A DNA stretch of 64,000 nucleotides from NCBI RefSeq assembly GCF_056746865.1, contig NZ_CM163382.1. One strand, given 5' to 3'. Below are positions 24,501 to 27,500 of this stretch, in pieces. How positions within the stretch are numbered: the first letter of the stretch is position 1; the number at the start of each line of letters is the position of its first letter. The position numbers were made by a program.

Positions 24501-27500
24501 GACACCTGGTTGCCTGGCCCGGAAAGCATAATGAGCCAGGGTTCGCAGGTGGCGGGGTTCAGTTCCGATTATTTAATCGACCTTGTCACACGCTTTATTA
24601 ACTGGCAGATGATTGGGGCCATTTTTGTTTTATTAGTGGCCTGGTTATTCCTGTCACAATGGATTCGCATTACCGTTTTTGTGGTTGCCATTCTGCTATG
24701 GCTGAACGTACTTACCCTGGCGGGACCAAGTTTCTCCTTGTGGCCTGCCGGTCAACCGACGACCACTGTAACAACGACGGGTGGTAACGCAGCGGCAACC
24801 GTTGCCGCGACGGGTGGCGCACCGGTAGTGGGTGATATGCCCGCACAAACAGCACCGCCAACAACGGCGAACCTTAACGCCTGGCTGAATAATTTCTATA
24901 ACGCAGAGGCGAAACGTAAATCGATCTTCCCATCTTCGCTGCCTGCTGATGCTCAGCCATTTGAACTACTGGTGATTAATATCTGTTCGCTTTCCTGGTC
25001 GGATATAGAAGCCGCCGGGTTGATGTCGCATCCGCTGTGGTCGCATTTCGATATTGAGTTCAAGAACTTTAACTCCGCCACCTCCTACAGTGGCCCGGCG
25101 GCGATCCGTTTACTGCGCGCCAGCTGCGGGCAGACTTCGCACACTAATCTGTATCAACCGGCAAATAACGACTGCTATCTGTTTGATAACCTGTCGAAAC
25201 TGGGCTTTACCCAGCACCTGATGATGGGACATAACGGCCAGTTCGGCGGTTTTTTGAAAGAAGTTCGCGAAAATGGCGGCATGCAGACCGAATTGATGGA
25301 TCAAACAAATCTGCCGGTTATTTTGCTGGGCTTTGATGGTTCGCCGGTTTATGACGATACCGCCGTGCTTAACCGCTGGCTGGACGTTACCGAAAAAGAT
25401 AAAAACAGCCGTAGTGCCACGTTCTACAACACGCTTCCACTGCATGACGGCAACCATTATCCGGGCGTCAGCAAAACAGCGGATTACAAAGCGCGGGCGC
25501 AGAAATTCTTTGATGAACTGGACGCCTTCTTTACTGAACTGGAGAAATCGGGTCGTAAAGTGATGGTGGTCGTGGTGCCGGAACACGGCGGCGCGCTGAA
25601 GGGCGACAGAATGCAGGTATCTGGCCTACGTGATATCCCTAGCCCGTCTATCACAGACGTCCCCGTTGGGGTGAAATTCTTCGGCATGAAGGCACCACAT
25701 CAGGGGGCACCGATTGTCATCGACCAACCGAGCAGCTTCCTGGCTATCTCCGATCTGGTGGTTCGCGTTCTTGATGGCAAGATTTTCTCCGAAGACAATG
25801 TTGACTGGAAAAAACTCACCAGTGGGTTGCCACAAACAGCACCGGTCTCCGAGAACTCAAATGCAGTAGTTATTCAATACCAGGATAAACCGTACGTTCG
25901 CCTGAACGGCGGCGACTGGGTGCCTTACCCGCAATAAGAACGAAAAAGGCCGCAGAGTTTCACCCCTGCGGCCTGATCCGGGCGCAAATTGCCATTACGG
26001 CAGCCTGACGCCCGCATGACACGTTACTTCCGCTTATTCAGCGAGTTCACGATCAGACTGGCAAGAATGCCAGCAATGACCGGAGCCGCTAAATCATGCC
26101 AGAAGGCCATGCCCAGTTCTGCGAGCGTCATATAGCCGCCTCTGTTGTAATGACAACGTTTCGCGGCTATTCTTGAGTTGTTTGGGTTCAAGATTAGCCC
26201 CCGTGATGTTGTCAGGTGCATACCTGCAACGTGCGGGGGTTTTCTCTCTCCAGCAACCAATGCCACCAGGGATTAAGCCCCCGCAACATTGCGCCTCACC
26301 GGAACCCTTCCGGCTTGCCGCTGATTCTACGGCCATTTTTGTTCGTCGAAATCCATCACTTCTTCACTCTGTGCTGCGCATTCCGCAGAATATTATCCGC
26401 TTGCAGCCGTTGCATTTTTCTTACGAAAAAGGCCGCAGAGTTTTATCCCTGCGGCCTGATCCGGGCGCAAATTGCCATTACGGCAGCCTGACGCCCGTCT
26501 GACACGTTACTTCTGCTTGTTCAGCCAGTTCACGATCATGCTGGCAAGAATGCCAGCAATGACCGGAGCCGCTAAATCGTGCCAGAAGGCCATGCCCAGC
26601 TCTGCGAGCGTCATATAGCCGCCTCTGTTGTAATGACAACGTTTCGCGGCTATTCTTGAGTTGTGTAGGTTCAAGAATGGCCCCCGTGATGTTGTCAGGT
26701 GCATACCTGCAACGTGCGGGGGTTTTCTCTCTCCAGCAACCAATGCCACCAGGGATAAAGCCCCCGCAACATTGCGCCTCACCGGAACCTTTCCGGCTTG
26801 CCGCTGATTCTACGATTGCTTTTTACCGTCAGCACCCGGCAATCTTCCTCATTGCGCGATGCCTTCCAGCTTAATTTCTTTATTTGCAATAGTTGCAGTT
26901 CATATCCGAGCTGACTCCAGACTGGTAGTGAAATGCGCAATTTTGTAGAATTGCGCCTCCTCGCGACCTCCCCAGTGAATCTGTTGCCTCATTTTTTACA
27001 TACTGCGTATTCGACTTCTCCACCTGTTGCGCAAGAGAAACTGGGTTTATTCATTTTTGCGAGGCCGACTTCTTTCTGGACAGGACTTTATGCAGCACAA
27101 CACACTACCGAAACACAATCAGAAATTGCCGTTTACACGCTACGACTTCGGCTGGGTTTTATTATGCATAGGCATGGCGATTGGTGCCGGAACCGTGCTG
27201 ATGCCAGTACAAATTGGCTTGAAGGGAATTTGGGTATTTATTACCGCAGCGATCATTGCTTATCCTGCCACCTGGGTAGTGCAGGACATTTATTTAAAAA
27301 CCCTTTCTGAAAGCGATTCCTGTAATGACTACACCGATATTATCAGTCATTACCTGGGGAAGAACTGGGGAATTTTCCTCGGGGTTATCTACTTTTTGAT
27401 GATTATCCACGGGATTTTTATCTACTCTCTCTCCGTGGTTTTCGACAGCGCCTCGTACCTGAAAACCTTCGGTTTAACCGATGCCGATCTTTCACAATCT

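What the first reader, a model, noticed from the sequence alone, without database searches (positions are those of the whole stretch)
25941..26814. Tandem duplication of the ldr/rdl type I toxin-antitoxin module downstream of bcsG
Two nearly identical ~390-bp units are separated by 89 bp. Each encodes a 35-aa Ldr toxin on the minus strand and ends in its own terminator. The toxins differ at 3 residues (S/M, S/W and R/Q near the C-terminus). I recall a single copy at this locus in K-12, so copy number differs here. The cognate Rdl antisense RNAs should lie opposite the ldr leaders but I could not delimit them.
Basis: partly seen in the sequence, partly recalled or inferred. Interest (0 to 1): 0.45.

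Follow-up and report, generated by a model that had tools for sequence, protein, structure and literature searches.

The report
Two-copy ldr/rdl toxin-antitoxin array, ordinary
The window carries two tandem copies of the well-known E. coli Ldr toxin / Rdl antisense-RNA module between bcsG and yhjV, which is ordinary because complete E. coli genomes carry one to four copies at this spot.

Summary
Two 392-nt direct repeats (25940-26331 and 26423-26814) differ at 17 positions (95.7% identity) and are separated by a 91-nt spacer.

Each repeat carries:
- an intact 35-codon ldr gene on the minus strand (Pfam Ldr_toxin, E 1e-23);
- its own intrinsic terminator;
- a full-length Rfam rdlD antitoxin RNA on the plus strand, at 26180-26245 and 26663-26728 (90 and 84 bits; gathering score 50).

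The 1.6-kb locus is 100% identical to E. coli 118UI. In a systematic sample of 60 of 5,438 matching records (5,426 complete genomes in the collection), the bcsG-yhjV gap holds one copy in 23, two in 5, three in 21, four or more in 10, and none in 1. RefSeq already annotates every copy, and both peptide alleles occur on about 1,000 or more contigs. Tandem, lineage-specific ldr duplication is in the literature (Fozo 2010).

The two copies are old paralogues, not a fresh duplication or an assembly artefact.

Two side notes: among array copies, variation is concentrated in the 17-nt 5' tail of Rdl, and the copy-1 toxin lacks the family's signature tryptophan (W30S).

Interest is low; this is already known.

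The parts
24258..25937 (+). bcsG (cellulose biosynthesis protein), upstream flank of the array
   Evidence: 559-aa ORF. Annotated as bcsG in the 100%-identical record NZ_CP032515.1.
25940..26331 (-). LDR unit 1 (bcsG-proximal): a complete ldr/rdl module
   Evidence: 392-nt direct repeat, 95.7% identical to unit 2.
25947..25974 (-). Intrinsic terminator of ldr-1 mRNA. It probably also ends the convergent bcsG transcript, because it is a near-palindromic hairpin.
   Evidence: Stem of 11 pairs (8 G-C) followed by TTTTCGT. The bidirectional role is inferred.
26024..26131 (-). ldr-1 CDS, 35 aa: MTLAELGMAFWHDLAAPVIAGILASLIVNSLNKRK (= WP_000170736.1). It lacks the signature Trp (S30).
   Evidence: Pfam PF13940 Ldr_toxin, residues 1-35 of 35, E 1.2e-23. 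RefSeq annotation. Seen on at least 1000 contigs.
26145..26173 (+). Candidate sigma-70 promoter of rdl-1 (TTGTAA, 17-nt spacer, TATTCT). The -10 hexamer ends 6 nt before the Rfam-defined Rdl 5' end.
   Evidence: Own relaxed scan. It lies in a 48-nt segment with no differences between the two units. Inferred; not shown experimentally.
26180..26245 (+). Rdl-1 antitoxin RNA, 66 nt, antisense to the ldr-1 5' leader
   Evidence: Rfam RF01813 rdlD, 90.4 bits (gathering score 50), E 6.6e-18, model positions 1-66 of 66. Predicted fold of -31.7 kcal/mol, z-score -5.0, with a free 5' tail, a long hairpin and a U tail.
26212..26289 (-). Conserved 25-codon ORF in the ldr-1 leader (MLRGLNPWWHWLLERENPRTLQVCT), preceded by GAGG. 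Its stop lies inside the Rdl target. Also an in-frame upstream ATG at 26221-26219. Both are candidates for the proposed leader ORF ldrX.
   Evidence: I could not check their identity with the published ldrX because the paper is not held.
26324..26329 (-). Candidate -10 hexamer (TAGAAT) of the ldr-1 promoter, at the very edge of the repeat. The -35 region lies in the spacer.
   Evidence: Inferred only. It would give an mRNA of about 370 nt ending at the terminator.
26332..26422 (.). 91-nt inter-unit spacer, absent from single-copy genomes such as K-12
   Evidence: The junction query 26300-26450 matches 3,302 of 5,426 genomes at 80% coverage or more, and K-12-type genomes match only 32 nt of it.
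26423..26814 (-). LDR unit 2 (yhjV-proximal): a complete ldr/rdl module
26430..26457 (-). Intrinsic terminator of ldr-2 mRNA
   Evidence: Stem of 11 pairs (8 G-C) followed by a T run.
26507..26614 (-). ldr-2 CDS, 35 aa: MTLAELGMAFWHDLAAPVIAGILASMIVNWLNKQK (= WP_000170743.1)
   Evidence: It falls in the same 90% cluster as K-12 LdrD and was seen on 999 contigs.
26628..26656 (+). Candidate promoter of rdl-2 (TTGTAA, 17-nt spacer, TATTCT)
   Evidence: Inferred.
26663..26728 (+). Rdl-2 antitoxin RNA, 66 nt. It differs from Rdl-1 at nt 3, 5, 15 and 17, all in the 5' tail.
   Evidence: Rfam RF01813, 83.8 bits, E 3.5e-16, model positions 1-66 of 66. Predicted fold of -32.3 kcal/mol, z-score -4.5. Mismatch positions.
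26807..26812 (-). Candidate -10 hexamer (TAGAAT) of the ldr-2 promoter. Its -35 region lies in the unique yhjV-side flank and so differs from that of ldr-1.
   Evidence: Inferred.
27090..28361 (+). yhjV (aromatic amino acid transporter family), downstream flank
   Evidence: RefSeq annotation of the identical record; ORF listing.

Best explanation
The region is a two-unit array of the chromosomal Ldr/Rdl type I toxin-antitoxin module (LDR-D type). It sits in the bcsG-yhjV intergenic gap of an E. coli chromosome.

Each unit is transcribed on the minus strand into an mRNA of about 370 nt. That mRNA has a long 5' leader, a 35-codon ldr ORF encoding a small membrane-active toxic peptide, and its own terminator.

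From the opposite strand of the leader, a constitutive promoter makes a 66-nt Rdl RNA with a free 5' tail, a long hairpin and a U tail. Rdl pairs with its own ldr leader, 49 nt or more upstream of the ldr start codon. According to the published model, this blocks toxin synthesis post-transcriptionally, probably by blocking a leader ORF (ldrX) to which ldr translation is coupled. The duplex is a substrate for RNase III.

What is shown here: the sequence anatomy, the family membership of both components in both units, and the population distribution. What is taken from the literature on K-12 ldrD/rdlD and not tested for these alleles: toxicity, repression and the ldrX coupling.

The two-unit state is one allele of a copy-number polymorphism of 1 to 4 or more units. 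I infer that it is maintained by unequal crossing-over and gene conversion between 483-nt periods. It is neither new nor strain-specific.
For: - Rfam rdlD full-length hits in both units.
- Pfam Ldr_toxin E 1.2e-23.
- Both peptides cluster with K-12 LdrD and are named Ldr family toxins by NCBI and UniProt.
- Terminators after both ORFs.
- Stable Rdl folds, z-scores -5.0 and -4.5.
- The rdl promoter-like sites sit in a 48-nt stretch that is invariant between the two units.
- The locus is 100% identical to strain 118UI.
- Copy number of 1, 2, 3 or 4 was verified in named complete genomes.
- Systematic sample of 60 records: 23 with 1 copy, 5 with 2, 21 with 3, 10 with 4 or more, 1 with none.
- That sample agrees with the junction count: 3,302 of 5,426 genomes (61%) hold at least one unit-spacer-unit junction.
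- An ldr module also lies next to bcsG in E. whittamii (1 copy), Escherichia sp. E1V33 (2 copies) and Pseudocitrobacter (1 copy, about 50% aa identity).
- Units at different array positions are intermixed in the distance matrix.
- Literature: LDR repeats and RdlD repression, and the ldrX proposal (PMC4147584); lineage-specific tandem ldr duplications (PMC2887945); the RNase III-cleaved ldrD/rdlD duplex (PMC7373196).
Against: - Nothing contradicts the identification.
- No expression data exist for this strain.
- Transcription start sites are inferred from hexamer matches. The tool's standard promoter scan found none.
- NCBIfam HMMs gave no hit for the 35-aa peptides.
- The copy-1 toxin lacks the superfamily's conserved Trp (W30S), so its toxicity is unverified.
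- The ldrX coupling model is itself unproven, as PMC4147584 states.
Confidence: 0.95

Rival explanations
1. A recent, strain-specific duplication of the single K-12-type ldrD/rdlD module, that is, a noteworthy new copy-number change.
For: K-12 and about 38% of sampled complete genomes have one copy at this locus.
Against: - The two units differ at 17 of 392 positions. That is as much as units from unrelated strains, and more than unit 1 differs from E. coli B unit 3 or DLL7555 unit 1 (7 differences each).
- The same two alleles in the same order occur in 118UI and RM14516.
- About 8% of sampled genomes have two copies and more than 50% have three or more.
Confidence: 0.02
2. An assembly artefact: a single locus falsely expanded into two copies.
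For: Tandem repeats of about 0.5 kb are a classic source of short-read assembly errors.
Against: - The copies are distinguishable (17 substitutions, three of them amino-acid changes) and have a unique 91-nt spacer.
- The identical structure is present in many independently finished genomes.
Confidence: 0.01
3. One of the two modules, most plausibly copy 1 with its W30S toxin, is a decaying or attenuated copy. Under this view the array is functionally a single toxin-antitoxin system plus a spare Rdl gene.
For: - Copy 1 lacks the conserved Trp that defines the Fst/Ldr superfamily signature (PMC2887945).
- Only 2 of 18 distinct units examined carry the Ser codon.
Against: - The ORF, start codon, terminator, rdl promoter-like site and Rdl fold are all intact in copy 1.
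- The allele is widespread, on at least 1000 contigs.
- The prototype Fst toxin has Val at this position and is still toxic, so the Trp is not essential in the superfamily (PMC7472228).
Confidence: 0.15

Closest known systems
E. coli K-12 ldrD/rdlD (LDR-D), the single module between bcsG and yhjV
   Same: - Same chromosomal site and same orientation.
- Same 35-aa toxin family. Copy 2 differs from LdrD at 2 residues and copy 1 at 3.
- Same 66-nt Rdl with the same hairpin.
- Same terminator and same yhjV-side flank.
   Different: - There are two units instead of one, joined by a 91-nt spacer that K-12 lacks altogether.
- The Rdl 5' tails differ from RdlD.
- Copy 1 has L26, S30 and L3; copy 2 has L3 and Q34.
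E. coli K-12 ldrA-ldrB-ldrC / rdlA-C tandem array (LDR-A/B/C)
   Same: Same principle: head-to-tail LDR units, each a self-contained ldr/rdl module, in one intergenic region (PMC4147584, PMC2887945).
   Different: A different locus and the other Ldr subgroup. The K-12 array belongs to the LdrB-group; the peptides here belong to the LdrD-group, a split that Fozo 2010 describes as an old duplication.
Two-, three- and four-copy LdrD-type arrays at bcsG-yhjV in other E. coli (118UI, RM14516, DLL7555, E. coli B, MS14384, ST38, ECONIH1, EC195)
   Same: Identical architecture and period (about 483 nt). 118UI is 100% identical over the 1,601 nt compared.
   Different: Only the number of units and the assortment of unit alleles differ.
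Other duplicated type I loci (ibs/sib, zorO-orzO / zorP-orzP) and hok/sok
   Same: - Tandem paralogous toxin/antisense pairs.
- For Sib and Orz, repression is restricted to the cognate pair despite high similarity (PMC2943612, PMC8167048).
- Ldr/Rdl is thought to be regulated like hok/mok/sok, through a leader ORF (PMC4147584).
   Different: - Unrelated toxin sequences.
- Sib overlaps the whole ORF, whereas Rdl overlaps only the leader.
- Cognate-only specificity has not, to my knowledge, been demonstrated for tandem Rdl copies.

Membership tests
Ldr/Rdl type I toxin-antitoxin (LDR repeat) | A 35-aa hydrophobic peptide matching the Ldr toxin profile | tested here: met
   Copy 1 matches Pfam PF13940 over 1-35 of 35, E 1.2e-23. 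Copy 2 is 91% identical to copy 1 and lies in the same 90% cluster as K-12 LdrD. NCBIfam returned no model hit.
Ldr/Rdl type I toxin-antitoxin (LDR repeat) | [quoted passage not shown] | tested here: met
   Rfam RF01813 full-length hits at 26180-26245 and 26663-26728 on the plus strand, 90.4 and 83.8 bits against a gathering score of 50. Each starts 49 nt beyond the ldr start codon (26131 and 26614).
Ldr/Rdl type I toxin-antitoxin (LDR repeat) | Rdl architecture: a single-stranded 5' tail, a long imperfect hairpin and a U-rich 3' tail | tested here: met
   Minimum-free-energy folds of -31.7 and -32.3 kcal/mol, z-scores -5.0 and -4.5. Nt 1-11 are unpaired and the tail is UUUUCU.
Ldr/Rdl type I toxin-antitoxin (LDR repeat) | A long ldr 5' UTR containing a regulatory leader ORF (ldrX) whose translation Rdl blocks | tested here: inconclusive
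   Two candidates are conserved in both units. One is a 25-codon ORF with a GAGG Shine-Dalgarno sequence that ends inside the Rdl target. The other is an in-frame ATG inside the Rdl target that stays open through to ldr in the five representative units translated, K-12 included. The transcription start site was not measured, and the paper that defines ldrX could not be read.
Ldr/Rdl type I toxin-antitoxin (LDR repeat) | Toxin overexpression kills or arrests the cell, and cognate Rdl relieves this | not testable with these tools
   Known for K-12 LdrD/RdlD only (PMC4147584). The alleles here are untested.
Fst/Ldr superfamily | A conserved Trp between the transmembrane helix and the charged C-terminal tail | tested here: not met
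   Copy 2 has W30 (…IVNWLNKQK). Copy 1 has S30 (…IVNSLNKRK). So the feature is met by copy 2 only. The prototype Fst also lacks it (PMC7472228), so this does not exclude membership.
Tandem LDR array at bcsG-yhjV (known copy-number polymorphism) | The same flanks, period and unit-spacer-unit junction as in annotated complete genomes | tested here: met
   100% identity to NZ_CP032515.1 over 1,601 nt. The junction is present in 3,302 of 5,426 genomes. Arrays of 1 to 4 units are annotated.

The most novel reading that the evidence does not exclude
The tandem copies may be kept functionally orthogonal by diversification of the Rdl 5' tail.

- Among 18 distinct units from 9 strains plus the window, 8 of the 17 tail positions vary, against 47 of 377 elsewhere (Fisher p = 0.0008).
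- All four Rdl-1/Rdl-2 differences in this window fall in that tail.
- Because Rdl is cis-encoded, every change stays perfectly matched to its own ldr leader but mismatches the neighbour's.

If the tail is the seed for target recognition, as Sok's tail is, each Rdl would control only its own toxin mRNA. Arrays would then be sets of independent switches rather than redundant copies. This has been shown for Sib/Ibs and OrzO/ZorO. To my knowledge it has not been shown for Ldr/Rdl.
Probability: 0.35. Interest if true: 0.3.

Novelty: already known. Interest (0 to 1): 0.1.

Why it matters
It matters little beyond correct annotation. The two Rdl antitoxin RNAs are not listed among the annotated features of the matching RefSeq record, and they can now be placed at 26180-26245 and 26663-26728.

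The locus illustrates how type I toxin-antitoxin arrays expand and contract within a species, here from 1 to 4 or more units at one site. K-12 under-represents this site: about 60% of complete genomes carry two or more units.

The only thread with research value is whether the hypervariable Rdl 5' tail makes the neighbouring modules independent of one another. That bears on why bacteria keep several near-identical type I toxins.

Tried and rejected
- NCBIfam HMM scan of both peptides: no hit. Pfam was used instead.
- The standard promoter scan found no sigma-70 site in 25800-27100. A relaxed scan of my own gave plausible rdl and ldr hexamers, which I report only as inferences.
- I tried to read Kawano 2012 (RNA Biol) to fix the identity of ldrX, by DOI, by PubMed id and by a guessed PMC id. 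It is not held.
- The 80-aa minus-strand ORF 26094-26336 overlapping ldr-1 was considered as a leader ORF and rejected. Its ATG lies in the spacer, and its start and stop are not conserved in unit 2 or in other strains.
That was enough to show the module next to bcsG in other Escherichia species and in Pseudocitrobacter. It is not a census.
- Assembly artefact and recent duplication were considered and rejected (see the rival explanations).
- Copy-number proportions come from a systematic sample of 60 ranked records plus a junction count, not a full per-genome tally. The collection is also biased towards clinical lineages.

Full report
**1. What is in the sequence**

Reading 25500-27300, the repeat finder, a pairwise alignment and a direct count all agree. 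There are two 392-nt direct repeats, 25940-26331 and 26423-26814. They have no indels and 17 substitutions (95.7% identity), and they are separated by a unique 91-nt spacer (26332-26422). The period is 483 nt. Homology stops abruptly on both sides.

On the minus strand each unit has a 35-codon ORF:
- 26024-26131: MTLAELGMAFWHDLAAPVIAGILASLIVNSLNKRK
- 26507-26614: MTLAELGMAFWHDLAAPVIAGILASMIVNWLNKQK

Each ORF is followed by a hairpin of 11 pairs and a T run, at 25974-25947 and 26457-26430.

The spacer is 91 bp, not 89. The first amino-acid difference is L/M, not S/M. The full set of differences is L26M, S30W and R34Q.

**2. What it is**

A gathering-threshold Rfam scan of the whole window places a full-length rdlD antitoxin RNA (RF01813, model positions 1-66 of 66) on the plus strand of each unit:
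- 26180-26245: 90.4 bits, E 6.6e-18
- 26663-26728: 83.8 bits, E 3.5e-16

They lie opposite the ldr leader and begin 49 nt beyond the ldr start codon, so they do not overlap the ldr ribosome-binding site.

Both fold into the expected shape of a free 5' tail, a long hairpin and a U tail. The energies are -31.7 and -32.3 kcal/mol, with z-scores of -5.0 and -4.5 against shuffles.

The copy-1 peptide matches Pfam Ldr_toxin end to end (E 1.2e-23). Both peptides fall in the same 90%-identity cluster as K-12 LdrD. Their sources name them Ldr family toxins, and each has been seen on about 1,000 contigs or more, which is the counting cap.

The flanking genes are bcsG (24258-25937) and yhjV (27090-28361).

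**3. Is the two-copy state unusual?**

No.

- The 1,601-nt stretch 25700-27300 is 100% identical to E. coli 118UI and matches 5,425 of 5,426 complete E. coli genomes.
- Annotated examples show one unit in MG1655.
- Two units occur in 118UI, RM14516 and DLL7555.
- Three units occur in MS14384, ST38 and E. coli B.
- Four units occur in ECONIH1 and EC195.
- RefSeq annotates an Ldr toxin CDS in every unit.

I then queried with a three-unit locus and listed 60 records at even steps down the ranking of 5,438. This gave 23 single-copy records, 5 two-copy, 21 three-copy, 10 with four or more, and 1 without the locus.

An independent count agrees. The unit-spacer-unit junction (26300-26450) is found at 80% coverage or more in 3,302 of 5,426 genomes (61%). 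K-12-type genomes match only 32 nt of it. The 551 genomes whose junction is at least 95% identical to this window's junction fit the roughly 8-10% two-copy class.

The proportions are sample-based, and the collection is clinically biased, but the conclusion is robust.

**4. History of the array**

The two units in the window differ by 17 nt. That is as much as units from unrelated strains differ.

Unit 1 is closest to E. coli B unit 3 and to DLL7555 unit 1, at 7 differences each. Unit 2 is closest to ECONIH1 unit 2, at 12 differences. Unit alleles are thus not tied to array position.

Inter-unit spacers come in two related types. The yhjV-side flank is constant. I infer an old array that is reshuffled by unequal crossing-over and gene conversion. 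This is not a recent duplication and not an assembly artefact.

Outside E. coli, an ldr module sits next to bcsG in three other lineages:
- E. whittamii, one copy;
- Escherichia sp. E1V33, two copies;
- Pseudocitrobacter, one copy at about 50% peptide identity.

The site is therefore older than the species.

This matches Fozo et al. 2010 (PMC2887945). They reported that ldr-rdl loci are repeated in one intergenic region, that the LdrD-group and LdrB-group split early in the enterobacteria, and that lineage-specific duplications and losses followed. As one example of high counts, their table lists 10 Ldr/Fst genes in Shigella sonnei.

**5. How it most likely works**

Shown here:
- Each unit is a self-contained module with a toxin ORF, a terminator and an antisense RNA gene.
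- A promoter-like site for rdl (TTGTAA, 17-nt spacer, TATTCT) ends 6 nt before the Rfam-defined Rdl start. It lies in a 48-nt stretch with no differences between the two units.

Inferred:
- The ldr -10 hexamer is TAGAAT, at the very edge of each unit (26329-26324 and 26812-26807).
- This would give an mRNA of about 370 nt.
- The -35 region lies outside the repeat, so ldr-1 and ldr-2 may differ in promoter strength.

From the literature on K-12 ldrD/rdlD:
- LdrD overproduction is lethal, and RdlD relieves this.
- RdlD acts post-transcriptionally on a leader segment that does not include the translation initiation region.
- Gerdes and Wagner proposed a leader ORF, ldrX, that couples to ldr translation as mok does to hok. 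This is still unproven (PMC4147584, PMC2943612).
- The ldrD/rdlD duplex is cut by RNase III in vivo (PMC7373196).

In both units I find two leader features compatible with that model. One is a 25-codon ORF with a GAGG Shine-Dalgarno sequence (26289-26212 and 26772-26695) that terminates inside the Rdl target. The other is an in-frame ATG inside the Rdl target (26221-26219 and 26704-26702), from which the frame stays open into ldr in the five representative units I translated, K-12 included. I could not establish which of these, if either, is the published ldrX.

**6. Things noticed**

*Variation in the Rdl tail.* Variation among 18 distinct units is concentrated in the first 17 nt of Rdl. Eight of 17 columns vary there, with mean entropy 0.41. 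Elsewhere 10-15% of columns vary, with entropy 0.05-0.10. Fisher's exact test gives p = 0.0008.

All four Rdl-1/Rdl-2 differences in the window lie in that tail. Because Rdl is cis-encoded, such changes preserve pairing with its own ldr leader while mismatching paralogous leaders. This could make the copies orthogonal, as is known for Sib/Ibs and OrzO/ZorO. Relaxed constraint on an unstructured segment is the dull alternative.

*The W30S toxin allele.* The copy-1 toxin carries Ser in place of the Trp that marks the Fst/Ldr superfamily (PMC2887945). The allele is common, and the Trp is dispensable in Fst itself (PMC7472228). Reduced toxicity is therefore possible but not implied.

**7. Verdict**

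Novelty: already known. Interest: 0.1. The most novel reading not excluded is tail-encoded orthogonality of tandem Rdl copies, with probability about 0.35 and modest interest.

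Noticed in passing
window 26180-26196 and 26663-26679 (Rdl nt 1-17); units in L002-L009: The 5' single-stranded tail of Rdl, and the complementary stretch of the ldr leader, is a hotspot of variation among array units. Eight of 17 columns vary, against 47 of 377 elsewhere (p = 0.0008), and at least six different tail sequences occur in 9 strains. This may be a specificity determinant that keeps the tandem modules orthogonal.
   Followed up: partly
window 26042-26044 (codon 30 of ldr-1, minus strand): The copy-1 toxin has Ser (TCG) where nearly all Ldr peptides have the superfamily's signature Trp (TGG). 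The allele (WP_000170736.1) is nevertheless widespread and also occupies the first position of a four-copy array in ECONIH1.
   Followed up: partly
window 26219-26221 / 26702-26704 and 26212-26289 / 26695-26772 (minus strand): Two conserved leader features were seen. One is an in-frame upstream ATG inside the Rdl target, with no stop before ldr; if used, it would give a 65-aa N-terminally extended Ldr. The other is a 25-codon ORF with a good Shine-Dalgarno sequence that stops 4 nt after that ATG begins. Either could be the proposed ldrX.
   Followed up: partly
window 26332-26351 versus 26815-26834: The repeat ends immediately upstream of the putative ldr -10 hexamer. The -35 regions of ldr-1 (in the spacer) and ldr-2 (in the yhjV-side flank) therefore differ, and internal and terminal units of the array may be transcribed at different levels.
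   Followed up: no
window 48239-48390 (-) and 47529-47956 (+): A second type I antitoxin is present: an Rfam sok hit (120 bits), which is a chromosomal hok/sok locus. It lies just downstream of the cspA thermoregulator leader and gene (498 bits). Whether the hok ORF is intact was not examined.
   Followed up: no
window 36259-36332 (-): A tRNA gene (Rfam RF00005, 60.7 bits). The anticodon was not determined.
   Followed up: no
L001 (NZ_CP032515.1) and L002 (MG1655p) annotation tables: The RefSeq records list the Ldr CDSs but no rdl RNA feature in this interval, although Rfam detects Rdl well above its gathering score. The antitoxin half of these modules does not appear in the feature tables I retrieved.
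   Followed up: no
L014 (Bacillus sp. EB106-08-02-XG196, 503-nt contig, coverage 0.66): A 503-nt low-coverage contig in a Bacillus assembly carries an E. coli-type ldr/rdl unit (91% peptide identity). It is almost certainly contamination of that assembly.
   Followed up: no
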